A DNA stretch of 64,000 bases from an uncultured Candidatus Saccharibacteria bacterium (GCA_964349485.1 CAYGGE010000005.1:3483-67482), one strand, 5' to 3'. Numbered from the stretch's first letter, positions 645-53,677 are shown. A program made the numbers and translations. The notes: generated by a model from the letters alone, not told the origin.

Positions 645-1634
645 ATGGAAGACATCTATGATGTGATTATTGTCGGTGGTGCCTCGGCGGGTTTGACAGC
701 AGCGATCTATGCGTCGCGTCGAGCCATGAAAACGTTGGTGCTAACTAAAGATATTGGTGGACAACTTTCGACGACCCCAGATGTAGAGAATTATCCTGGT
801 TTTGAGACGATTACTGGCTGGGATCTATCCGAAAAGTTCAAAAAACAGGCCGAGAAGTTTGGGGCTGAAGTAAAGTTTACTGAAGTCACTGCGGTCAAGC
901 AAGACGGTGAAGACTTTATCGTTGAGGCCCATGAGACAAGCTACAGAACTCGGACCGTCATCTTAGCCTTCGGTAAAACTCCACGTAATCTTGAAGTTCC
1001 TGGGGAAAAAGAATTTCAAGGCAAAGGCGTTTCCTACTGTGCGACCTGCGATATCCCGCTCTACAAAGGTAAAACGGTCGTCATTGTTGGTGGCGGAAAC
1101 TCGGCAATCGATGCCGCAATATATGGTTCAAAAATATCTGATAAAATATACCTTGTTCATCGGCGTGACGCTTTTCGAGCTGAGCAAGTACTTATCGATC
1201 GTATGAAGGCGGCACCCAACATTGAGATCATCTACAACTCAATAGCCAAAGAAATTACTGGCGATACGGTCGTACGAGGTCTAACTATAACCGATATCAA
1301 TACTGGCGAGGACCGCAAACTCGAAGTTGGTGGAGTTTTTGTCGAAATTGGCTACGTCGTCAAGGCTGAGTTCATTAAAGATTTGGTTGAATTCTCACCG
1401 GTTAAAGAGATAACCACCGATGATCATATGATGACTTCCGTCCCTGGCATATTTGCCGCTGGCGATGTCACAAATTCTGTTTATAAGCAGGCAGTCATCT
1501 CTGCCGGCGAAGGCTGTACGGCCGCTTTAGCTGCTTTTGAGTACTTGATTAAAAAAGAAGGCCGACGAGTAGCCATGGTTGACTGGGGTAAGGCCGACGA
1601 AGCGACAAAAGTGACTAAAACTGATTCTAACTAA
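645..1634 (+). CDS. trxB: thioredoxin reductase (FAD/NAD(P)-dependent)
   Basis: N-terminal GGASAGLTAA FAD motif, the redox-active CATCD motif, and a second GGGNSA nucleotide-binding motif. Confidence 0.9.
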   Translation: MEDIYDVIIVGGASAGLTAAIYASRRAMKTLVLTKDIGGQLSTTPDVENYPGFETITGWDLSEKFKKQAEKFGAEVKFTEVTAVKQDGEDFIVEAHETSYRTRTVILAFGKTPRNLEVPGEKEFQGKGVSYCATCDIPLYKGKTVVIVGGGNSAIDAAIYGSKISDKIYLVHRRDAFRAEQVLIDRMKAAPNIEIIYNSIAKEITGDTVVRGLTITDINTGEDRKLEVGGVFVEIGYVVKAEFIKDLVEFSPVKEITTDDHMMTSVPGIFAAGDVTNSVYKQAVISAGEGCTAALAAFEYLIKKEGRRVAMVDWGKADEATKVTKTDSN

Positions 1635-5361: not shown

Positions 5362-6591
5362 CTAATCCGAGCCGGGAAGAGGAAAACTACTAGCGAACAT
5401 AGCCACGGTTTTCTGTAGTAAAGCAAGTGCCTTCTTGTCACCACGATTTTCAATTGCTGTATCGATAAATTCAGCAATTTTCTCCATGTCTTTTTCTTTC
5501 ATATCTCGGCTGGTCATGGCCGGCGTGCCGAGTCGCACGCCCGATGGTGTCGCTGGTGGCGCGGGGTCGTAGGGGACCGTATTTTTATTGAGCGTAATAT
5601 TGACGCTATCCAGTAGTTCCTGGGCTTCGAGACCAGAGATGTTTTTCGACCGTAAATCTACTAGTAGTAGATGGTTATCGGTCCCGCCCGTAATCACCCG
5701 GTAGCCATGTTTCGTCAGAGCCGTTGCTAAAGCCTGTGCGTTCTTGACGATCTGTTTGGCGTATTCTTTAAAGTCATCGGTCATTGCTTCCTTGAAACAG
5801 ATTGCCTTAGCGGCAGTCACATGATCGTGAGGCCCACCTTGCAACCCAGGGAAAACTGCTCGATCGATCGCTTTCGCATACTGTTTTTGGCAAAATATAA
5901 CCGCACTTCTTGGTCCACGTAGAGTTTTGTGGGTAGTGGTAGTGATAACCTGTGCTAATCCGAATGGTGAAGGATGTACTCCTGCGGCAACTAGACCAGC
6001 GATATGAGAGATATCGGCCATCAGGATAGCATCAACAGATTTAGCAATCGCTGAAAATCGCTCAAAGTCGATGACTCTTGAGTAGGCAGTTGCACCACAA
6101 ACAATCATCTTCGGCTTATGTTTTTTGGCTAGATCTTCCACCTCATCGTAATCGATCAACTCCGTATCTTGCTTTACAGTATAGGGAATGAAGTTGTAAG
6201 CCTTGCCGGAAAAACCGATCGGTAGACCGTGAGTAATATGTCCGCCCATGTCCAATCTCATGCCGAGTACAGTGTTACCAAACTCAAGTAGACCAAAGTA
6301 GACGGCCGTGTTTGCTGGAGAACCAGAGTAAGGCTGCACATTCACATGATAATCGGTATCGAACAGTTTCTGGGCTCGTTTGATAGCGAGAAGTTCGATA
6401 TCGTCGATAACTTGGTTACCACCATAATATCGCTTCTTGGGGTAACCCTCTGAGTACTTGTTGGTCAAGATTGACCCAACGGCTTTCAAGATATCTTTGG
6501 AGACATAGTTCTCGCTAGGAATGAGTTCGATACCTTCTTTCTGTCGTTTGAGCTCAGCCTCGATCAGTCGTTCAATTTTTTTGTCGCGCAT
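5362..6591 (-). CDS. glyA: serine hydroxymethyltransferase
   Basis: YSGSPANTAVYFGLL and HKTLRGPR (PLP lysine) motifs. Start trimmed to the ATG at 6591, which follows a GGAGGT RBS. Confidence 0.9.
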   Translation of the reverse strand: MRDKKIERLIEAELKRQKEGIELIPSENYVSKDILKAVGSILTNKYSEGYPKKRYYGGNQVIDDIELLAIKRAQKLFDTDYHVNVQPYSGSPANTAVYFGLLEFGNTVLGMRLDMGGHITHGLPIGFSGKAYNFIPYTVKQDTELIDYDEVEDLAKKHKPKMIVCGATAYSRVIDFERFSAIAKSVDAILMADISHIAGLVAAGVHPSPFGLAQVITTTTHKTLRGPRSAVIFCQKQYAKAIDRAVFPGLQGGPHDHVTAAKAICFKEAMTDDFKEYAKQIVKNAQALATALTKHGYRVITGGTDNHLLLVDLRSKNISGLEAQELLDSVNITLNKNTVPYDPAPPATPSGVRLGTPAMTSRDMKEKDMEKIAEFIDTAIENRGDKKALALLQKTVAMFASSFPLPGSD

Positions 6592-12045: not shown

Positions 12046-12110
12046 ATTTGAGTGGATCGACTGTTGTCGAGAAGGTCGTTCGCGAGTGCGCGGGCGGCCT
12101 TTTCGCTTTA

Positions 12111-12142
12111 CAGGGTATGACCCTGCGCAGGGTCATACCCTG
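12111..12142. promoter_or_regulatory. perfect 32-nt palindrome CAGGGTATGACCCTG-cg-CAGGGTCATACCCTG
   Basis: Read directly from the sequence. It lies 66 nt after the small-ORF stop and 11 nt upstream of the predicted der -35. Confidence 0.6.
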
Positions 12143-12152
12143 TATGGTATTA

Positions 12153-25219: not shown

Positions 25220-26044
25220 TTATTCGTGTAGAAACTTACTAACCTCGACGACGGCTTCGTCACCATTCTTTACCCATACGACATCCCCATGCCCCCGGAA
25301 CCAAGTAAGTTGGCGGCGAGCGTAGGCGTGGATGGCGTATTTGAGTGACTGGGCGAATTCGTTTTTGGGGATCTTGTGTTCGATGTAGTCTGTGACAAAG
25401 CGGTATTCGAGACCAAATTTGCGCAGGCGGTCGGCTTCAACTCCTTCGGCCAGTAACCGTTCGCCTTCGGCAATCATCCCAGCTTCAATTCGTGAATCAA
25501 CCCGTTGGTCGATCCGTTCATAGAGTTCTTCACGAGGGATATCGATCCCGAGAGTGAGCACGTCCCAAGCGGGTGGATTCTTTTCCTGATATGTACTTGC
25601 CGCATGACGTGGGTTGTTTTCGTCTCGGGGTACAGAATCAGAAAAGACATAGCCTTCAAATAAGGCGTTGATGTAGAGACCGGTACCACCAACTACAATC
25701 GGTAGCTTTCCACGACTCAAGATATCCTCAATTATTTCATAAGCAGCAGCCTGCCAATCCGCCACCGTAAATCGCTCTTTTGGATCTGCAATATCAACCA
25801 GCCATTGAGAGGTATCGTCAAGATATCGTATGGTAGGATACTTGCTTTGAAATTTGTCATTTGTCATTTGGATTTTTTTCAACGTCCCTTCCTTGCCACT
25901 TCCAATATCCAACCCAACATAAACCTGCCGGCTATCGGCCGACACGATCTCCCCATTGAATTGTTTCGCCAAGGCAACGGCCAGCCCCGTTTTACCACTG
26001 GCGGTGGCTCCGACGATGGCGAGTATTTTTGGTTTACTGGGCAT
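25220..26044 (-). CDS. miaA: tRNA dimethylallyltransferase
   Basis: ILAIVGATASGKT P-loop and SADSRQVY motif. The ATG at 26044 is preferred over the TTG at 26062. Confidence 0.85.
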   Translation of the reverse strand: MPSKPKILAIVGATASGKTGLAVALAKQFNGEIVSADSRQVYVGLDIGSGKEGTLKKIQMTNDKFQSKYPTIRYLDDTSQWLVDIADPKERFTVADWQAAAYEIIEDILSRGKLPIVVGGTGLYINALFEGYVFSDSVPRDENNPRHAASTYQEKNPPAWDVLTLGIDIPREELYERIDQRVDSRIEAGMIAEGERLLAEGVEADRLRKFGLEYRFVTDYIEHKIPKNEFAQSLKYAIHAYARRQLTWFRGHGDVVWVKNGDEAVVEVSKFLHE

Positions 26045-26180
26045 CTTTGGCTTTATCAACAATCGTATCGCGGATCGTATAGATTGAGCGATTATCCACT
26101 TTCATGGTCGCGACTTCCTCTTTTGCCGCCTCTTTAAGCAGCTCTTCCTCGATCTTCTCAAGCTCCTCTTCGTCTTGCAT
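26034..26180 (-). CDS. possible 48-aa Glu-rich small protein between clpB and miaA ([23 protein letters not shown]...)
   Basis: Its ATG overlaps the clpB stop (TAATG) and its stop overlaps the miaA start region. Below the ORF-track size cutoff. No RBS and no homology evidence. Confidence 0.2.
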   Translation of the reverse strand: MQDEEELEKIEEELLKEAAKEEVATMKVDNRSIYTIRDTIVDKAKDAQ

Positions 26181-28882
26181 TACCCCTCCTGTCCGCCAGC
26201 TAGCGGGTCAGCTTTTGCATATTCCACGGTTTTAATCATCGGTAGAGTCGACTTGAATTGGAGCGCACCGTTTTTTGCGGCAATCGTCACGCTTGAGCCA
26301 TCGCCAATCTTTGCTTCAATAATCTGGAGCGCCAGGGGGTCAAGGATCTCGTTTTGGATCACTCGTCGCAGTGGCCGGGCTCCATAGCTTGGATCATACC
26401 CCTTCTCGATGAGGAGGTCGAGAGCTGACTGGTCAATCTCAATTCGTACACCGCGGTCGGCTAGCCGTTTCTTTACCTGTTCGATCTGATGCAGAACTAT
26501 CGTCTTCAACTGTTCCTTAGTAAGCGGATGGAAAACCACGATCTCATCAATTCGGTTTAAAAACTCCGGCTTAAAGCTGTGCTTCAATTGTTCAAGTACA
26601 TCGTGTTTGGTTGCCTCGAACTGCTGCTGCGCATGGCTCTTTTCGTCGCTGGTCTTAGCCTTAAAACCGATGACCGCTTGATTGGTTAAGATGTCTGTGC
26701 CAATATTGCTGGTCATAATGATGATTGTGTTCTTGAAATTAGCGACGCGACCCTTCGCATCTGTCAGCCGACCATCGTCAAGTACCTGAAGTAGTATATT
26801 AAATACCTCAGGGTGAGCCTTCTCGATCTCGTCAAACAAGACGACTGAATAAGGTCGTTTGCGGATCTGTTCAGTGAGCTGACCCCCTTCCTCGTAACCG
26901 ACGTAGCCGGGAGGCGAACCGATTAATTTGGCTGTCGAATGAGCTTCTCGATATTCGGACATGTCAACCCGGACGATTGCTGTTTCGTCGTCGAACATAA
27001 ACTCAGCTAAGGCTTTCGCTAGTTCGGTCTTACCCACACCAGTCGGGCCAAGGAAGATGAATGAGCCGATCGGTCGGTGGGCTTCGCCGATACCGGCGCG
27101 GGAGCGACGGGTAGCGTTGCTCACTGCTTTGACGGCTTCTACTTGGCCAACAAGACGTTTAGCTAACTCTTCTTCCATGCGGGCTAACTTCATCTGTTCC
27201 GACTGTAGCATCTTAGTGATCGGCACGCCGGTCCAGCGGGCGATGACTCGAGCAATCTCTTCTTCGCTGACCTCTTCCTGCAGAATCCGGTCCTTACCGT
27301 CAATTTTTCCTAGCTCCTGCTGATATTCTACGATCTGTTGTTCAAGTTTCGGGATATCGGCATAACGCAGTTTCGCTACAATATCGAGCTTGCTTTCACG
27401 TTCGGCGGTCTCAGTTTCGTGACGCTTTTCCTCAAGTTGGGTTTGGGCGGCCCGGATTTTGGTAATAATCTCTTTTTCCCGTTTCCAACGAGCCTGGAGT
27501 TCAGTCTGTTGTTCTTTTAAGTTTTCAAGCTCTTTTTGTACCTCAACGAGACGATCCTTAGCCTCTTTCTCCCGCTTACTCTCCTCCTTGAGAGCCTGGC
27601 GTTCGACTTCGAGGCGCATGACTCGGCGGTTGAGCTGGTCAAGTTCTTGAGGCATGGAGTCGATCTCCATCCGCAAGCTGGAAGCCGCCTCGTCGATGAG
27701 ATCAATCGCTTTGTCGGGGAGAAATCGGTCACTGATGTATCGACTCGATAATGTCGCCGCAGCGACCAAAGCAGAATCGGTAATCCGCACCCCGTGATGG
27801 ACCTCGTATTTGTCTTTGATCCCTCGAAGTATCGAGACTGTATCTTCAATCGACGGTTCCCCGACAAAGACCGGTTGGAACCGACGCTCTAAGGCAGGAT
27901 CGCGTTCAATATATTTTTGATATTCGCGGAGTGTTGTCGCGCCAATCGCGTGCAGTGTTCCCCTAGCCAAAGCCGGTTTCAGCATATTCGAAGCATCGAG
28001 CGAGCCTTCGCTGCTTCCAGCACCGATAATCGTATGGAGCTCATCGATAAACAAAATGTAGCGACCATCGGACTGCTCGACTTCTTTAAGGATGGCCTTC
28101 AGTCGTTCCTCAAACTCACCGCGCATCTTTGTGCCGGCGACTAACGCACCGAGATCAAGACCAATCAACTCGCGATTTTTGAGAGTTTCTGGGACGTCTC
28201 CGGCGATAATTCGCTGGGCTAGGCCTTCAACGATCGCCGTCTTCCCGGTTCCTGGCTCACCTAATAAAACTGGATTATTTTTAGTTCGTCGCGAAAGGAC
28301 TTGCATGACCCGACGGATCTCCTCATCACGACCTATCACCGGATCGAGCTTACCGCTCTTGGCCCGTTCGGTATAATTCAAGGTATATTTCTCGATTGCC
28401 TGGTACTTTCCTTCCGGCGACTGATCAACCACTCGTTCGTTACCCCGCACCTCGGCGAGAGCTTTGAGAACGGACTCGTGACTAATGCCGAATTGGCTTA
28501 AGAAAACAGCAATCGGACCGCGGCTACTCGTCATAGCTAAGAGAAGATGCTCAGTCGAGACATATTCGTCAGTTAACGTCTTTGCCTCTTTACTGGCCTG
28601 CTCAAAAACTGCCGCTAACTCATTTGAAAGACTGATCTGCCCGAAAGCCTGCGGTGCTTTTAGGCGCGGCAGCTGATCGATTAATTTGTCTAACCGTTGT
28701 ATCACGGTTGATAGATCGGCCCCCATCTTTGATAGGATTGGTCCAACCACTCCACCATCTTGGTTGATAAGCGCCACGAGCAAATGCGGCGCCTCAACCA
28801 CCGCCTGCCCACGTTCTGAAGCGACTGCCTGCGAAGCCACAACCGCTTCCTGACTTTTATGCGTAAACTTATTGATATCCAT
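26180..28882 (-). CDS. clpB: chaperone ClpB (AAA+ disaggregase, two nucleotide-binding domains with a coiled-coil M domain)
   Basis: Two Walker A motifs GEPGTGKT and GPTGVGKT, a long coiled coil between the NBDs, and a 900-aa length. Confidence 0.9.
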
Positions 28883-28917
28883 AACACCTCCGCTCCTTAC
28901 TTCTCCAATACTAAAAC

Positions 28918-28941
28918 AAATGTAAAGAAAACTTTACATTT
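28918..28941. promoter_or_regulatory. perfect inverted repeat AAATGTAAAG-N4-CTTTACATTT overlapping the clpB promoter (candidate repressor operator)
   Basis: Read from the sequence. It covers the -10 and spacer of the predicted clpB promoter and abuts the -35. Confidence 0.5.
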
Positions 28942-28947
28942 TGTCAA
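28919..28947 (-). promoter_or_regulatory. sigma-70-like promoter for clpB (-35 TTGACA, 17-nt spacer, -10 TACATT)
   Basis: Motifs read on the minus strand about 40 nt upstream of the clpB ATG; a GGAGG RBS follows. Confidence 0.45.
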
Positions 28948-28996
28948 GATCATGCCGGCTGACCAAAAAATCCCATCTTTCGATGAGACTTTTGAT

Positions 28997-29082
28997 TGGT
29001 GCCGGGAAGAGGACTCGAACCTCCACATCCTTGCGGATACCAGCTCCTAAAGCTGGCGTGTCTACCATTTCACCATCCCGGC
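28997..29082 (-). tRNA. tRNA-Leu (anticodon UAG), class II long variable arm, CCA encoded
   Basis: Acceptor gccggga/tcccggc, anticodon loop tttagga and a 15-nt variable arm. Confidence 0.85.
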
Positions 29083-29218
29083 GCTTACTAGTTTTCAGTT
29101 GTCAGTGATCAGGTGTCAGAAGGCTTAGTGTCATTTCGAATGTCTGTGGTGACAGAATGAGAAATCTCGTTTGGTGCGGGATCTCTCACCCGTCGGGGAT
29201 TCGAGATGACGGTATTAG

Positions 29219-29662
29219 TTATTCCCAGATCAATTCGTTTTTTATTTCGCTAAAGAGCTTTTGGCCGATGCCTTTTACTTTCTGCAGGTCTTCTACTGAT
29301 TTGATTTGGCCTTCATCTCGCAGGACAGCAATATCCGCTGCTCGTTTTTCGCCGATACCTTTGAGCGTTTCAAGCTCTGTTGGGGTGGCAGTGCGGAGAT
29401 TGATCGGACCCTGGTTCGTTTTGGCTGAAACTGTACGAGTAGGATCAGCTGACGTATCTCTGGTTCCATGCTGATCAAGCACGGCTAGTTGGTTTCTGAT
29501 GATCGCATTGTCTGCGTTGTCGCCAGCTTCCGCACTAGGCTGAGTCTTCACAGTCAAATAGGTTAAACACAGACCAACCACTACCAAAAACACAATTGCA
29601 AAAGGGAAATACTTATCGAAGACGTGTTGACGGCTACGCCAAATGTTGTCTTGGTTCGTCAT
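29219..29662 (-). CDS. comEA: ComEA-like DNA-binding protein (N-terminal TM, C-terminal tandem helix-hairpin-helix)
   Basis: INLRTATPTELETLKGIGEKRAADI...LQKVKGIGQKLFSEI HhH motifs. Confidence 0.8.
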   Translation of the reverse strand: MTNQDNIWRSRQHVFDKYFPFAIVFLVVVGLCLTYLTVKTQPSAEAGDNADNAIIRNQLAVLDQHGTRDTSADPTRTVSAKTNQGPINLRTATPTELETLKGIGEKRAADIAVLRDEGQIKSVEDLQKVKGIGQKLFSEIKNELIWE

Positions 29663-43932: not shown

Positions 43933-44317
43933 GGGGCTGTATTGGCTTCGACGGGTAGATCCTGAAGAAGAAATGGGCGAGCCGCGTTGTTCACGTACGA
44001 ACAAAAATCCTAAGTGCAAACTTAGTAGGCCGTGTTAAATCTGCCGTAGCGCAAGCTTTCGGTAGCCTAACATTGGCTCCTGTATACGCTTAAATTCGTA
44101 TACCGTCAGCTTAGTCATGCCTATTGGCTAAGTCCTGGCGCAATAAAATAGGCTGCACTTACCTAGAGTATCGCTGTCGGTAACTAAGCTTACTGCGGTT
44201 GCCATTGTTGTTTCTTGTTTGTTCTAAGCAACAATCAAGCCTTTGAGCAGACTACGCTCGTAGTCCATTTCCCTATTCACTATTCGGACAGGGGTTCGAC
44301 TCCCCTCAGCTCCACCA
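43933..44317 (+). ncRNA. ssrA: transfer-messenger RNA (tmRNA, SsrA)
   Basis: 5' GGGGCTGTATTGGCTTCGACGGG and 3' tRNA-like end GGACAGGGGTTCGACTCCCCTCAGCTCCACCA. Internal candidate tag frame at 44016..44093 would encode (A)NLVGRVKSAVAQAFGSLTLAPVYA*. Confidence 0.85.
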
Positions 44318-48694: not shown

Positions 48695-49849
48695 GTGAAG
48701 ATTGGGATATTTACTGAGACATATGAACCAACCATCAATGGGGTTGTTGTTTCAATCAATACGTTTAAGAAAGAACTTGAGCGACAGGGTCACGAGTACT
48801 ACATTTTCTGTCCTTTCAACAAACATGCCAAAAGCGATCCGCCAAATGTATTTCGGTTTCCAGCAATTCATTTCCGCAACGATTTACTCTATCCTTTGGC
48901 TATTCCCATGCCGTTTGCATGGGTTAAGCAACAACTACCAATCGACATCATCAAGACTCTAGACATCATCCATGTTCAACATTTCGCCTTAATGGGTCAA
49001 TATGGCCTTAGACTGGCCAAAGCATACAATATTCCAAGTCTATATACATATCACACCATGGCAGAGCTTTATGTCGTCAATGCTCCCTGGATCGCACCTC
49101 TGGCCGAGCCAGCAATAAGGGCTTTGACTCGCTATACGGCACGACAGGCCAAGCACGTAATTACTCCCACTCAGTCAGTTAAGGACTATTTGCACACGAT
49201 TGGTATTCATAGGCCGATATCGGTGGTTCCGACAGGTATCGATGTAAATCAATACGGTCGGACGAATGGCCGGAGTCTACGCAACAAATATCGCATTCCG
49301 CATGACCATAAATTACTTCTTTACGTAGGTCGATTAGCGGCGGAAAAAAACGTACCATTTTTGTTGCAGGCGTTTAAGCAGGCTTTGCGCTTTGAACCTA
49401 AAACACATCTTATCTTAGTTGGCGGTGGGCCTGACAAGAGTCAGTTTGAGACGTGGGTAAAACAGAATAGACTTAAGAATGTCATTTTCACTGGCTTTGT
49501 AGCACATTCTGAGGTAAAAGAGCATTTTGGTTTGGCCGATATCTTTGTTTTTCCCTCGGTGAGTGATACTCAAGGTATTGTCATCCTTGAAGCCATGGCG
49601 GCCGGAGCAGTTCCAGTGGCGATCGATAGACTTGGTCCCCACGATCTCATCGACAATGGTCACAGTGGAGTCCTAATTGACTTGAATCTTGATGCTTTTT
49701 CTGGTACAATTATCGATCTATTACGTAATGATCGTAAAAGATTAGCTATGGCGAGAAATGCAGAGCGCCACGCCAATCGATATGACTATAAAGTAACAGC
49801 TAGACAGATGGAAGAAGTCTATCGTGAGTTAATTAAAAACGATGATTGA
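48695..49849 (+). CDS. glycosyltransferase family 4 (MGDG-synthase-like / GT-B)
   Basis: KIGIFTETYEPTINGV N-terminus and C-terminal E-x7-E region (ILEAMAAGAVPVA). GTG start at 48695 follows a GGGAGAGG RBS. Confidence 0.75.
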   Translation: MKIGIFTETYEPTINGVVVSINTFKKELERQGHEYYIFCPFNKHAKSDPPNVFRFPAIHFRNDLLYPLAIPMPFAWVKQQLPIDIIKTLDIIHVQHFALMGQYGLRLAKAYNIPSLYTYHTMAELYVVNAPWIAPLAEPAIRALTRYTARQAKHVITPTQSVKDYLHTIGIHRPISVVPTGIDVNQYGRTNGRSLRNKYRIPHDHKLLLYVGRLAAEKNVPFLLQAFKQALRFEPKTHLILVGGGPDKSQFETWVKQNRLKNVIFTGFVAHSEVKEHFGLADIFVFPSVSDTQGIVILEAMAAGAVPVAIDRLGPHDLIDNGHSGVLIDLNLDAFSGTIIDLLRNDRKRLAMARNAERHANRYDYKVTARQMEEVYRELIKNDD

Positions 49850-51218
49850 TAAGTCAACCAATACCAAGGTAGCCCTTGTTCCGGCACCCTCACTGCGTCA
49901 AAAAGCGAAGAAGGTGACCGTTTTTGATAATGCACTTAAGACAACGGCTGATACGATGCTTGAAACCATGCGATCGTATAAAGGTATGGGCTTGGCTGCA
50001 CCCCAGATTGATCAGTCAAAACAGCTGCTGGTGATTGAATATGTTCCCGAGGAGAAAGGTGAACAACCAATTCCGACGACTATCCTAGTTAATCCCAGTA
50101 TCACTGATTCCAGTAAGTCAACGGACTGGATGGACGAGGGCTGTTTGTCGATTCCTGGTGTTGAGTTACCTGTTAAGCGCTCAACTGCGATTAATGTCTT
50201 AGCACAAGATATATCTGGTAAGAGAATCAAGATTCGGGCCAAACAATTGTTTGCCCGCATTCTCCAACATGAGATAGATCATCTGAACGGGACATTGATC
50301 ACCGATCGAGCCTATCCAAACCTCGAACAGTTAGCTGGTAGCAGAATTATCTTCTTTGGTACACCGAATCATGCTACCTACTATCTGACTGCTCTCGCTG
50401 CAACCAAGGCAGAGATCGTTGCAGTAGTCACTGAAACCGACAAACCTGCCGGAAGAAATCAACAACTCACACCGCCTCCGGTGAAGGTTCATGCTGAACT
50501 AATGGGTCTACCCGTACTCCAATTCGAATCCCTGAAAACGAAAGAAGCCCAGCAAGCGATCGATAATCTGAAGGCTGATCTAGCTGTCGTTGTTGCTTAT
50601 GGTCAAATCATTCCCCAAACAGTTTTGGACATGCCCAAGCATGGCTTCTTGAATATTCATTATTCTTTACTCCCATCATACCGTGGCGCTACACCTCATC
50701 AATCGGCAATTCTAGCCGGAGAGAAAATCGCAGGTTACAGTATCTTCAAGCTAGATAGTGGCCTAGATACAGGTCCAATCCTCTCTCAAGGGAGCCTACC
50801 TATCGAGCCCGGCGATACCAGTCACACGTTGTTACAAAAACTTGTTCCGCCTTCCATTTGTACTCTTTTGGAAATGTTACCCGAGTATTTTTCAGGTAAG
50901 AAACAGTTAAAAGTGCAGGATGATAGTCAAGCAACCAATACCAAAGTTTTTACCAAAGAGGATGGCCGAATTGACTGGACGGATGAACCTACCGTTATAG
51001 ATCGTCAGATTCGGGCTTACTTCCCGTGGCCAGGAACATTTACAGAGATCAACGGTCAGCGTTTGTTGATTCATGCGGCTCATATCATTGATGACCGATT
51101 AGTAATCGATGTCGTTCAACCAGCCGGTAAACAGTCAATGAGCTTAGGTAGTTACCTACGTGGCAACCCTGCCGGGTTGACTTTCTTCTCGAGTATTGAT
51201 AGAGTAAAGCTTAACTAA
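49842..51218 (+). CDS. def-fmt: peptide deformylase - methionyl-tRNA formyltransferase fusion protein
   Basis: Def motifs GMGLAAPQ, EGCLS and QHEIDHLNG at residues 1-170, then Fmt RIIFFGTPNH...HYSLLPSYRG from residue ~185, in one continuous frame. Overlaps the upstream GT4 stop. Confidence 0.8.
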   Translation: MIDKSTNTKVALVPAPSLRQKAKKVTVFDNALKTTADTMLETMRSYKGMGLAAPQIDQSKQLLVIEYVPEEKGEQPIPTTILVNPSITDSSKSTDWMDEGCLSIPGVELPVKRSTAINVLAQDISGKRIKIRAKQLFARILQHEIDHLNGTLITDRAYPNLEQLAGSRIIFFGTPNHATYYLTALAATKAEIVAVVTETDKPAGRNQQLTPPPVKVHAELMGLPVLQFESLKTKEAQQAIDNLKADLAVVVAYGQIIPQTVLDMPKHGFLNIHYSLLPSYRGATPHQSAILAGEKIAGYSIFKLDSGLDTGPILSQGSLPIEPGDTSHTLLQKLVPPSICTLLEMLPEYFSGKKQLKVQDDSQATNTKVFTKEDGRIDWTDEPTVIDRQIRAYFPWPGTFTEINGQRLLIHAAHIIDDRLVIDVVQPAGKQSMSLGSYLRGNPAGLTFFSSIDRVKLN

Positions 51219-53023: not shown

Positions 53024-53659
53024 ATGGCTCGGCAAATACCAGAGATGGCGGACATCGATGGTAACGGCCTTGTGCCTGTTGCCTCAATTTGTTCAGACTA
53101 TAGGCCTACAGTAAGACGCATAGCACAGATACTTCACAGACGTTACTACATCCCAGGACACGATTTCGCTGACATATTAGGTTTGGTGAATCTCGCACTT
53201 CTTCAAGCAATACGCGATTTCGATCCGAGCAAAGGGACATTTGAGCGATTCATCTATCTTATCGCTCAGAGACTCGTTATCACTGGTATTCGGACGGAGA
53301 GCAGGAAGTCAAGAGTTTTGAATACAGCATACTCCCTTGATGCCCTACTTGGCGTTGACGGAGATAGTACTCTACTAGATCTGATACAAGCAACAGATTC
53401 AGTCGAGGATTCATCACTTTCTGAACATGAGCCGTCAGATAACGTATTGACGTTCATTTCACGGTATTGCACTCCGATCGAACAGCTCGTGGCAAGAGGA
53501 ATAGCTAATCAAAAAAGCTATGACGAAATGGTCGAGCAGGCTAAGACAGAAGGCATATGTCTAAATAGCGGTCGACAAATCAACCGAAAGTCGATTGACA
53601 ACGCCTTCAGTCGCCTAAAGCAAAAAGTCAGGAAAGAGTTTCCTACTGCGTCCCAGTGA
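53024..53659 (+). CDS. sigma-70-family RNA polymerase sigma factor (ECF/SigH-like, regions 2 and 4 only)
   Basis: Region 2: DFDPSKGTFERFIYLIAQRL. Region 4 HTH: KSYDEMVEQAKTEGICLNSGRQINRKSIDNAFSRLKQ. Confidence 0.5.
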   Translation: MARQIPEMADIDGNGLVPVASICSDYRPTVRRIAQILHRRYYIPGHDFADILGLVNLALLQAIRDFDPSKGTFERFIYLIAQRLVITGIRTESRKSRVLNTAYSLDALLGVDGDSTLLDLIQATDSVEDSSLSEHEPSDNVLTFISRYCTPIEQLVARGIANQKSYDEMVEQAKTEGICLNSGRQINRKSIDNAFSRLKQKVRKEFPTASQ

Positions 53660-53677
53660 GCTTCACTGGGACGACTT

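What the first reader, a model, noticed from the sequence alone, without database searches (positions are those of the whole stretch)
28911..28950. Perfect 10-N4-10 palindrome across the clpB promoter: candidate heat-shock repressor operator of unknown type
AAATGTAAAG-aaaa-CTTTACATTT (28918..28941) sits across the predicted -10 (TACATT) and spacer of the clpB promoter and directly abuts the -35 (TTGACA). This is the classic layout of a repressor-controlled stress promoter. The sequence matches none of CIRCE (TTAGCACTC-N9-GAGTGCTAA, HrcA), HAIR (CTTGAGT-N7-ACTCAAG, HspR) or the CtsR heptad repeat. It may therefore be the binding site of an uncharacterised chaperone-regulon repressor in this lineage. 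No hrcA, hspR or ctsR gene is in the window.
Basis: seen in the sequence. Interest (0 to 1): 0.55.

Follow-up and report, generated by a model that had tools for sequence, protein, structure and literature searches.

The report
Repressor operator on clpB heat-shock promoter
The palindrome in front of clpB is a real, conserved repressor binding site of the CylR2 type, and in related ultra-small (Patescibacteria) bacteria the same site also precedes dnaK and a gene for a DNA-binding domain fused to a small heat-shock protein, which points to an undescribed heat-shock switch.

Summary
AAATGTAAAG-aaaa-CTTTACATTT lies at 28918..28941 inside a minus-strand sigma-70-type promoter (TTGACA, 17 nt, TACATT), 36 nt upstream of the clpB start codon.

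A palindrome this size is not significant by itself. Its conservation is. All six available relatives (ClpB 70-78% identical) keep TTGACA-nn-ATGTAAAG-N4-CTTTACAT upstream of clpB, while the rest of the intergenic DNA has diverged.

The operator is not of an unknown type. Of 120 genome loci carrying it, 66 encode an XRE helix-turn-helix protein of the CylR2 subfamily within about 600 bp. The Enterococcus cyl promoter carries a similar palindrome, with half-site TGTCAAG.

In Saccharibacteria, Berkelbacteria and other Patescibacteria, the same promoter-operator layout precedes dnaK (7 loci). It also precedes genes for a fusion of this HTH domain with a complete small heat-shock protein: 8 loci found by motif, and 3 of 3 chosen independently.

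I infer a self-regulated HTH-sHSP repressor of an sHSP/DnaK/ClpB set, released when the sHSP part is engaged by unfolded protein. The fusion gene was not seen in this window, so the regulator's identity in this genome is inferred. I found no literature describing it. Verdict: new variant of a known kind; interest 0.7.

The parts
28918..28941 (.). Operator: perfect palindrome AAATGTAAAG-N4-CTTTACATTT. The conserved core is ATGTAAAG-N4-CTTTACAT at 28920..28939.
   Evidence: The arms are invariant and the N4 is variable in 7 of 7 genomes of the lineage. The same 9-N4-9 sequence occurs in at least 120 genome loci.
28942..28947 (-). -35 hexamer TTGACA, directly abutting the operator
   Evidence: It is invariant in the alignment of four clpB upstream regions. 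The TTGACA-nn-ATGTAAAG geometry is found at 22 of 25 clpB, dnaK and fusion-gene sites in Patescibacteria.
28919..28924 (-). -10 hexamer TACATT, lying inside the arm of the palindrome nearest clpB
   Evidence: 17-nt spacer. In several fusion-gene promoters the ATG lies 6-8 nt after this hexamer. That fits leaderless mRNA and so supports a working -10.
28887..28898 (-). Ribosome binding site AAGGAGCGGAGG of clpB
   Evidence: Read from the sequence. It is the only other invariant block in the alignment of clpB upstream regions.
26180..28882 (-). clpB coding sequence (900 aa), the gene controlled
   Evidence: TIGR03346 ClpB equivalog, 1264.9 bits. It is syntenic with miaA and the ATP synthase genes in relatives.
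28997..29082 (-). tRNA-Leu(UAG) upstream on the same strand. It is a neighbour, not part of the switch.
   Evidence: ARAGORN and Rfam.
28965..28992 (-). Intrinsic terminator of tRNA-Leu: a stem with a GAAA loop followed by a run of six U. Its presence shows the palindrome is not needed as that terminator.
   Evidence: Fold of -16 kcal/mol, z = -3.8.

Best explanation
The palindrome is the operator of a dimeric XRE-family (CylR2-like) helix-turn-helix repressor. It lies across the spacer and -10 of an otherwise near-consensus sigma-70 promoter, so a bound repressor would block RNA polymerase and keep clpB off.

In this branch of the Patescibacteria the repressor is most probably a fusion protein. 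It has an N-terminal CylR2-like HTH, a flexible linker, and a complete small heat-shock protein: N-terminal helix, alpha-crystallin domain and C-terminal I-x-I tail. In related genomes that protein's own gene, dnaK and clpB all carry the same promoter-operator cassette. Together these three products are the sHSP/DnaK/ClpB disaggregation set.

Proposed cycle:
1. Without stress, the sHSP part dimerises and holds two HTH domains on the operator.
2. Heat or unfolded protein draws the sHSP part into substrate complexes, or changes its assembly state, and pulls the repressor off the DNA.
3. sHSP, DnaK and ClpB are made.
4. DnaK and ClpB clear the aggregates, the repressor is freed, and the promoters shut again.

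Shown by computation: the operator, its promoter position, its conservation, its link to the HTH subfamily, and the presence of the same cassette at dnaK and at fusion genes.

Inferred: binding by the fusion protein, the direction of control, the stress signal, and the presence of the fusion gene in this genome.
For: 1. Position. The layout is TTGACA, 17 nt, TACATT, with the palindrome over the spacer and the -10.

2. Footprint. Six relatives (ClpB 70-78% identical, four different sample or assembly accessions) all carry TTGACA-nn-ATGTAAAG-N4-CTTTACAT upstream of clpB. In the four-way alignment only this block and the RBS are invariant, and the N4 varies.

3. Link to the transcription-factor family. 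Of 120 genome loci with AATGTAAAG-N4-CTTTACATT, 66 encode a CylR2-like HTH within about 600 bp, across many phyla. The closest solved structures are 9K3W and CylR2. The cyl promoter holds TTTTGTCAAGT-gtc-ACTTGACAAAA.

4. Regulon in Patescibacteria. The motif lies directly upstream of 8 HTH_3+HSP20 fusion genes and 7 dnaK genes, including both in one Berkelbacteria MAG (L067 and L072).

5. Reverse test.

6. The fusion is a complete sHSP plus an HTH. Ordinary sHSPs align to residues ~103-243. Pfam finds PF01381 and PF00011. The AF2 model shows a confident HTH (residues 9-68) and alpha-crystallin domain (139-228) joined by a disordered linker. The HTH is 38% identical to CylR2.

7. No CIRCE or HAIR was found in the window or in 21 related loci, about 300 kb in total.

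8. Precedent for an sHSP acting as an aggregation sensor that controls expression: E. coli IbpA (PMC10410725; bioRxiv 10.1101/2020.04.20.050740).
Against: - The fusion gene, or any CylR2-like HTH or sHSP gene, is absent from the 64 kb window, from 10 kb beyond its start, and from three 22 kb relative loci. The regulator of this genome is therefore unseen.
- The same operator is used by short, unfused HTH proteins for unrelated genes, including in other Patescibacteria. The motif alone does not identify the fusion.
- Only one copy lies in the window. The rest of the genome could not be scanned.
- ClpB loci from more distant lineages (61% identity or less) lack the motif, so the arrangement is lineage-limited.
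- No copy was seen at groES/groEL, lon or clpP.
- There is no experimental evidence for binding, repression or a heat response.
Confidence: 0.68

Rival explanations
1. The site is an operator, but in this genome it is bound by a short, unfused CylR2-like XRE repressor, typically paired with a small membrane protein. clpB would then answer a membrane or envelope signal rather than an sHSP-based sensor.
For: The short 65-80 aa form is the commonest partner of this motif across phyla, and is the form found in Paceibacteria-type Patescibacteria. The CylR2/CylR1 system is the characterised model (PMC3709268). No regulator gene is visible near clpB.
Against: Where chaperone genes carry the operator (Saccharibacteria, Berkelbacteria, unclassified Patescibacteria), the HTH gene found with the identical TTGACA-nn-operator cassette is the HSP20 fusion. 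In the short-HTH Patescibacteria loci the controlled genes are thioredoxin, DsbD and Msr types, not chaperones.
Confidence: 0.2
2. The palindrome acts at the RNA level, as a hairpin. It could be a second terminator or attenuator after tRNA-Leu, or a stabilising stem, rather than a protein binding site.
For: It can fold (-8.6 to -11.6 kcal/mol, z about -3) and is followed by GUUUUAG on the clpB strand. It lies downstream of a tRNA gene here and in L219.
Against: - The tRNA has its own strong terminator (-16 kcal/mol plus six U).
- The stem has only 2 G-C pairs in 10 and is not called by the terminator scan.
- Most of it lies upstream of the predicted transcription start.
- It is conserved with the -35 hexamer in the five relatives with enough upstream sequence to judge, where no tRNA lies in the 200-220 nt shown upstream.
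- The arms are invariant in sequence, not merely in pairing.
- The same sequence tracks an HTH gene family.
Confidence: 0.04
3. It is a chance A+T-rich palindrome in an intergenic region, with no function.
For: About 0.9 perfect inverted repeats of this size are expected per 64 kb of random sequence. There is only one copy in the window.
Against: It is identical in 7 of 7 genomes of the lineage while the flanks diverge. It has at least 120 occurrences in the genome collection, 66 of them beside the same HTH subfamily.
Confidence: 0.01
4. It is an activator site. The bound protein would recruit or remodel RNA polymerase, in the manner of MerR, instead of blocking it.
For: The site lies between the -35 and -10 hexamers, as MerR-family sites do. 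One homologous small XRE regulator is reported as a positive regulator (GakR; bioRxiv 10.64898/2026.09.04.749385).
Against: The spacer is the optimal 17 nt and both hexamers are good (10 of 12). MerR-type activation depends on an overlong 19-20 nt spacer (general knowledge). The characterised relative CylR2 is a repressor (PMC3709268). The protein is XRE, not MerR.
Confidence: 0.05

Closest known systems
CylR2 / IR1 operator of the Enterococcus faecalis cytolysin promoter (XRE family; PDB 1UTX, 2XIU)
   Same: - The HTH is of the same subfamily: phmmer E = 3e-14 for a short family member and 3e-7 for the fusion; 38% identity over 65 residues; shared SRQ(T/S)I recognition helix and PS motif.
- The operator is a promoter-overlapping palindrome with a nearly identical half-site, TGTCAAG versus TGTAAAG.
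- It acts as a homodimeric repressor (PMC3709268).
- The gene pairing with a small membrane protein (CylR1) is also seen beside this motif in Firmicutes, Bacteroidetes and others.
   Different: - The half-site spacing is one base longer in the cyl promoter (N5 versus N4), and the exact motif is absent there.
- CylR2 controls a toxin operon in response to a quorum peptide, not chaperones.
- CylR2 is 66 aa with no sensor domain. The candidate regulator here carries a whole sHSP.
HrcA-CIRCE, HspR-HAIR, CtsR and RheA: the classical bacterial heat-shock repressor/operator systems
   Same: - A repressor operator lies across the promoter of chaperone genes (dnaK, clpB).
- The regulator's own gene is autoregulated.
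- The proposed feedback runs through the chaperone system, as with GroEL for HrcA and DnaK for HspR (general knowledge).
   Different: - The operator sequence and the protein family are both different. CIRCE, HAIR and CtsR boxes were tested and are absent.
- The sensor would be covalently built into the repressor as an sHSP, not a separate chaperone or an intrinsically heat-labile fold.
E. coli IbpA as an aggregation sensor that represses its own and rpoH translation (PMC10410725; bioRxiv 10.1101/2020.04.20.050740)
   Same: An sHSP doubles as a negative regulator of heat-shock gene expression and is titrated away by aggregated protein. This is the same logic proposed here.
   Different: IbpA acts on mRNA at the level of translation and has no DNA-binding domain. 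Here a dedicated HTH is fused to the sHSP and the target is a DNA operator in promoters. This part is unproven.

Membership tests
HrcA / CIRCE | Inverted repeat TTAGCACTC-N9-GAGTGCTAA in the promoter or leader | tested here: not met
   No match with up to 4 mismatches in the window or in 21 related loci, about 300 kb in total.
HspR / HAIR | Inverted repeat CTTGAGT-N7-ACTCAAG | tested here: not met
   No match with up to 2 mismatches in the same sequences.
CtsR box | Tandem heptad RGTCAAA-NAN-RGTCAAA at the promoter | tested here: not met
   The window has 14 weak matches with up to 3 mismatches, none between 28883 and 29000.
CylR2-like XRE operator | Palindrome with TGT(A/C)AAG half-sites overlapping a promoter | tested here: met
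   Here the site is TGTAAAG-N4-CTTTACA across the spacer and -10. The cyl promoter has TGTCAAG-N5-CTTGACA. The spacing differs by one base.
CylR2-like XRE operator | The motif travels with a gene for a CylR2-subfamily HTH | tested here: met
   Of 120 motif loci, 66 encode such an HTH within about 600 bp. Three of three independently chosen fusion genes have the motif upstream.
CylR2-like XRE operator | A cognate HTH gene is present in the same genome as this site | not testable with these tools
   None lies in the window, in 10 kb beyond its start, or in three relatives' 22 kb loci. The rest of the genome could not be fetched.
CylR2-like XRE operator | The protein binds the site and represses transcription | not testable with these tools
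   This needs a gel-shift, footprint or reporter assay.
HTH-HSP20 fusion regulon (proposed here) | Same promoter-operator cassette (TTGACA-nn-ATGTAAAG-N4-CTT|TACATT) as at the fusion gene's own promoter and at dnaK | tested here: met
   The geometry is identical at 7 of 7 clpB sites, 7 of 7 dnaK sites and 8 of 11 fusion-gene sites.
HTH-HSP20 fusion regulon (proposed here) | The regulator has both an XRE HTH and a complete sHSP | tested here: met
   This was shown for related genomes only. Pfam finds PF01381 and PF00011. All 120 best homologues carry both domains. Plain sHSPs align to residues ~103-243. An AF2 model supports the two-domain layout.
Intrinsic terminator | G+C-rich stem followed by a run of U | tested here: not met
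   The stem has 2 G-C pairs in 10 and is not called by the scan. The tRNA's own terminator lies 25 nt upstream.

The most novel reading that the evidence does not exclude
Patescibacteria (at least Saccharibacteria, Berkelbacteria and the lineage of this window) may run their core proteotoxic-stress response through one protein that is both a small heat-shock chaperone and a transcription repressor. This would be an XRE HTH fused to a complete sHSP. It would sit on a 20-bp operator in the promoters of its own gene, dnaK and clpB, and would be pulled off the DNA when its chaperone half binds unfolded protein. That would be a further class of bacterial heat-shock repressor, alongside HrcA, HspR, CtsR and RheA. 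It would also be, to my knowledge, the first in which the damage sensor is a chaperone covalently built into the DNA-binding protein.
Probability: 0.5. Interest if true: 0.85.

Novelty: new variant of a known kind. Interest (0 to 1): 0.7.

Why it matters
How the candidate phyla radiation regulates anything is largely unknown, and these organisms are hard to culture. This result gives a concrete, testable regulon: an operator sequence, a promoter layout, three target gene classes and a candidate regulator. That regulator is currently annotated only as 'Hsp20 family protein'.

If the fusion protein is the repressor, it is a minimal one-component proteostasis switch in which the chaperone is itself the sensor. 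That would be of interest for heat-shock biology, for sHSP biochemistry (a built-in read-out of sHSP engagement) and as a compact stress-responsive part for synthetic biology.

The result also shows that a single operator type, the CylR2-like one, has been reused across many phyla for very different regulons. This is a caution against inferring function from a motif alone.

Tried and rejected
- **Metagenome scan for ClpB relatives.** All 80 loci were 61% identical or less, and none had the motif within 400 bp upstream. These are distant lineages, so the scan says nothing about close relatives. The relatives were reached instead through the protein search and contig look-ups.
- **Finding the regulator in this genome.**
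  - tblastn of the fusion, the short HTH and the sHSP against the window and the relatives' loci found nothing.
  - Walking off the window start gained 10 kb (L215) with no motif and no heat-shock gene.
  - The look-up at the window end failed because the protein is not on record.
  - The listing of cluster members gave no accessions that could tie fusion proteins to the window's assembly.
- **Literature.** Searches for an HTH-Hsp20 fusion, for Hsp20 in Saccharibacteria or Patescibacteria, for the motif words, and for PDB 9K3W found nothing relevant. The CylR2 structure paper (PMC517608) is not held, so I read the cyl operator directly from a plasmid record.
- **Terminator reading.** Rejected.
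- **CIRCE, HAIR and CtsR.** Rejected.
- **A DnaA-box or origin-linked element.** I considered this because TTATCCACA-like boxes abut the motif in Paceibacteria-type loci. It does not apply here, since no such box lies at the clpB site. In those loci the motif sits between a short HTH operon and thiol-repair genes.
- **Taxonomy of the window.** Not resolved below Patescibacteria. The closest named ClpB homologues are only 60-62% identical.

Full report
**What is in the window**

The stretch 28918..28941 reads AAATGTAAAG-AAAA-CTTTACATTT, a perfect 10-N4-10 inverted repeat. It lies on the upstream side of a 900-aa minus-strand ORF (26180..28882). That ORF is ClpB by the NCBIfam equivalog model (1264.9 bits).

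Read on the minus strand, the order is:
- tRNA-Leu(UAG), 29082..28997;
- the tRNA's own terminator, a GAAA-loop hairpin of -16 kcal/mol followed by six U;
- TTGACA (28947..28942), a 17-nt spacer, then TACATT (28924..28919). This is the only promoter-like site in 28700..29300 and matches 10 of 12 positions;
- the ribosome binding site AAGGAGCGGAGG;
- the ATG at 28882.

**Is it more than chance?**

Not by size alone. About 0.9 perfect inverted repeats with arms of 10 or more and loops of 0-12 are expected in 64 kb of Markov-1 random sequence. The window holds eight such places, most of them G+C-rich terminators flanked by A and T runs. The motif occurs once in the window even when 3 mismatches are allowed. 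The case therefore rests on comparison with other genomes.

**Close relatives**

The window comes from an uncultured organism (Logan and ENA assemblies). Its ClpB has about fourteen homologues at 70-78% identity. The next tier, at 62% or less, is named Paceibacteria, Parcubacteria, Uhrbacteria, Moranbacteria, Doudnabacteria or 'Patescibacteria group'. The window is thus a Patescibacteria (CPR) lineage without named close relatives.

I fetched six of the close relatives, from four different sample or assembly accessions. All are syntenic (clpB, miaA, ATP synthase). Every one carries TTGACA-nn-ATGTAAAG-N4-CTTTACAT upstream of clpB, and in each locus of 5-23 kb it is the only perfect match.

In the alignment of four upstream regions, the only invariant blocks are CTTGACAAAATGTAAAG plus CTTTACATT, and the ribosome binding site. 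The central N4 varies (TTTT, AAAA, AAGA), and the distance to the ATG varies from about 36 to 100 nt. This is the pattern expected of a protein binding site tied to a promoter.

A metagenome scan for ClpB returned only distant lineages (61% or less). None had the motif, so the arrangement is limited to certain lineages.

**What the motif is**

I estimate that chance would give on the order of ten or a few tens for 18 specified bases in about 600 Gb.

By record title or gene content, 44 of the 120 loci are Patescibacteria, although these small genomes make up only a small share of the collection. Sixty-six of the 120 loci encode an XRE-family HTH protein of one subfamily within about 600 bp of the motif. 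These loci span Firmicutes, Bacteroidetes, Proteobacteria, Acidobacteria, Spirochaetes, Planctomycetes and Patescibacteria.

The closest solved structures to that HTH are 9K3W (a 65-aa 'PbsX family' regulator) and CylR2, the 66-aa repressor of the Enterococcus faecalis cytolysin operon. CylR2 works with CylR1, a small three-helix membrane protein (PMC3709268). The same pairing, a short HTH followed by a small membrane protein, recurs beside the motif in many of these loci.

I read the cyl promoter from a plasmid record. It holds TTTTGTCAAGT-gtc-ACTTGACAAAA, so the half-site is TGTCAAG rather than TGTAAAG, and the half-sites are one base further apart.

The operator is therefore not of an unknown type. 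It belongs to the CylR2-like XRE subfamily.

**What is particular to Patescibacteria**

Clustering the genes that flank the motif gave two settings.

*Setting A* covers Saccharibacteria, Berkelbacteria and unclassified Patescibacteria.
- The motif lies directly upstream of dnaK in 7 loci.
- It lies directly upstream of a 230-265-aa gene with an N-terminal HTH_3 domain and a C-terminal HSP20 domain in 8 loci (Pfam; the eighth, L081).
- One Berkelbacteria MAG shows both (L067 and L072).
- One further locus places it beside a clpC-like gene, although the TTGACA there faces the other way (L041).

Oriented by the downstream gene, 22 of 25 clpB, dnaK and fusion-gene sites share one geometry: TTGACA, two bases, ATGTAAAG-N4-CTT, then TACATT. 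In several fusion genes the ATG follows TACATT by 6-8 nt. That fits leaderless mRNA and supports TACATT as a working -10.

All three have a perfect core motif within 60 nt upstream.

*Setting B* covers Paceibacteria, Nomurabacteria, Yanofskybacteria, Parcubacteria and others. There the regulator is a short unfused HTH. The genes after the motif encode a Met-rich membrane thioredoxin, DsbD-redoxin fusions, an MsrA-MsrB fusion and a disulfide oxidoreductase. This is a different regulon under the same operator type.

**The fusion protein**

A profile search found 1443 clusters at E of 1e-10 or better. The 120 best all carry PF01381 and PF00011, and where named they are called only 'Hsp20 family protein'.

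In the 50%-identity library, about 40 representatives align over the full length. Ordinary 145-160-aa sHSPs align to residues ~103-243 of the fusion. The C-terminal part is therefore a complete sHSP:
- a conserved PWRPF...RLFEDS stretch;
- the alpha-crystallin domain;
- a C-terminal I-x-I tail.

An AlphaFold2 model gives the following:
- a confident HTH, residues 9-68, pLDDT about 90;
- a disordered linker, residues 82-106;
- a helix, residues 111-124;
- a beta-sandwich, residues 139-228, pLDDT about 85.

The HTH is 38% identical to CylR2 and shares the SRQ(T/S)I helix and the PS motif (invariant columns).

**Mechanism proposed**

The promoter has an optimal 17-nt spacer and good hexamers, and the site covers the -10. 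The family's characterised member is a repressor (PMC3709268). Repression by occlusion is therefore the straightforward reading.

In related genomes the cassette precedes an sHSP, dnaK and clpB. By general knowledge, sHSP, DnaK and ClpB together hold and resolve protein aggregates. A repressor whose other half is an sHSP would be titrated by unfolded protein, and released again once DnaK and ClpB have cleared it.

E. coli IbpA provides a precedent for an sHSP acting as an aggregation sensor that controls expression, though it works on mRNA (PMC10410725; bioRxiv 10.1101/2020.04.20.050740).

No CIRCE or HAIR was found in about 300 kb of these loci, including all seven dnaK loci.

**Limits**

- The fusion gene is not in the window, not in 10 kb beyond its start, and not in three 22-kb relative loci. 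I could not fetch the rest of the genome.
- The same operator is used by unfused HTH proteins elsewhere. For this genome the regulator could therefore be a short CylR2-like protein. I put that at about 0.2.
- Binding, repression and stress response are all untested.
- No operator was seen at groES/groEL, lon or clpP in the data reached.

**Rivals**

- An RNA hairpin or terminator is unlikely. The stem is weak and not G+C-rich, and the tRNA has its own terminator. The arms are conserved in sequence together with the -35 hexamer, including in the five relatives with enough upstream sequence to judge, where no tRNA lies in the 200-220 nt shown upstream.
- Chance is excluded by the conservation.
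- MerR-style activation does not fit the 17-nt spacer or the protein family.

**Novelty**

Ten literature searches found nothing on an HTH-Hsp20 fusion, on this operator, or on heat-shock regulation in Saccharibacteria. The library lacks most subscription journals, so this is absence of evidence only.

I rate the finding a new variant of a known kind: repressor and operator control of chaperone genes, with an XRE-sHSP fusion as the likely regulator. Confidence by claim:
- the site is a conserved operator of a CylR2-like repressor: about 0.9;
- the regulator in this genome is the sHSP fusion: about 0.65;
- it responds to proteotoxic stress: about 0.55.

Noticed in passing
window 12109..12144: A perfect 18+18 palindrome with no loop, TACAGGGTATGACCCTGC|GCAGGGTCATACCCTGTA. 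Each half is itself a CAGGG-N5-CCCTG hairpin. It lies in the gap between a 98-aa ORF of unknown function and the der (EngA) GTPase gene, just upstream of a TTGACG-17-TATAGT promoter-like site. It is the longest perfect inverted repeat in the window, and no run of T follows it.
   Followed up: partly
L021, L022, L038, L039, L047, L051, L054, L065, L068, L075, L083, L087, L088, L092, L094, L097, L099, L105, L114, L117, L121 (motif coordinates): In Paceibacteria-type Patescibacteria the identical operator follows a short CylR2-like HTH gene and a small gene. It precedes a Met-rich membrane thioredoxin, DsbD-redoxin fusions, an MsrA-MsrB-DM13 fusion or a disulfide oxidoreductase. This looks like an envelope oxidative-damage repair regulon. 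A TTATCCACA-like box often abuts the motif.
   Followed up: partly
L003, L006, L014, L016, L069, L076, L082, L085, L100, L109, L120: In high-G+C Pseudomonadota MAGs the palindrome is extended to about 26-30 bp (ccAAAATGTAAAGTCGACTTTACATTTTgg). It occurs several times per genome, with no CylR2-like HTH in the 8 kb fetched. A second recurring phrase (cCTGAAAAnGGC..TTTTTg) lies 60-100 bp away. This may be part of a longer repeated or mobile element.
   Followed up: no
window 43933..44317: A tmRNA with an unusually long predicted tag peptide, ANLVGRVKSAVAQAFGSLTLAPVYA, 25 residues.
   Followed up: no
window 49842..51218: A single 458-aa ORF combines peptide deformylase (PF01327) with methionyl-tRNA formyltransferase (PF00551, PF02911). 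This is a def-fmt gene fusion.
   Followed up: no
window 53024..53673: An ECF-type sigma factor gene (Sigma70_r2 only, 211 aa) ends in a perfect 11-N3-11 palindrome, CGTCCCAGTGA-gct-TCACTGGGACG. The palindrome is shared with the convergent M23 peptidase gene and is probably a bidirectional terminator.
   Followed up: no
L029 ~6130..6230 and L071 ~1100..1200 (dnaK leaders): The long dnaK leaders of a Saccharibacterium and a Berkelbacterium share a conserved stretch (ggagctRG...tcgSWgggtcaccac) 20-60 nt after the operator. It could be a leader RNA element or a small ORF.
   Followed up: no
window ~26030..26180; L001 2846..2992; L203 12712..12909; L204 12717..12887; L205 12709..12873; L218 12732..12902: A small ORF of 48-65 aa is called between clpB and miaA in the window's genome and in four relatives. 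It overlaps the end of clpB or the start of miaA and has no Pfam hit.
   Followed up: no
L041 6766..6785: In MAG DTUPAT3 the motif lies 89 nt from a clpC-like 829-aa AAA+ gene, but its abutting TTGACA faces away from that gene. The target of this copy is unclear.
   Followed up: partly
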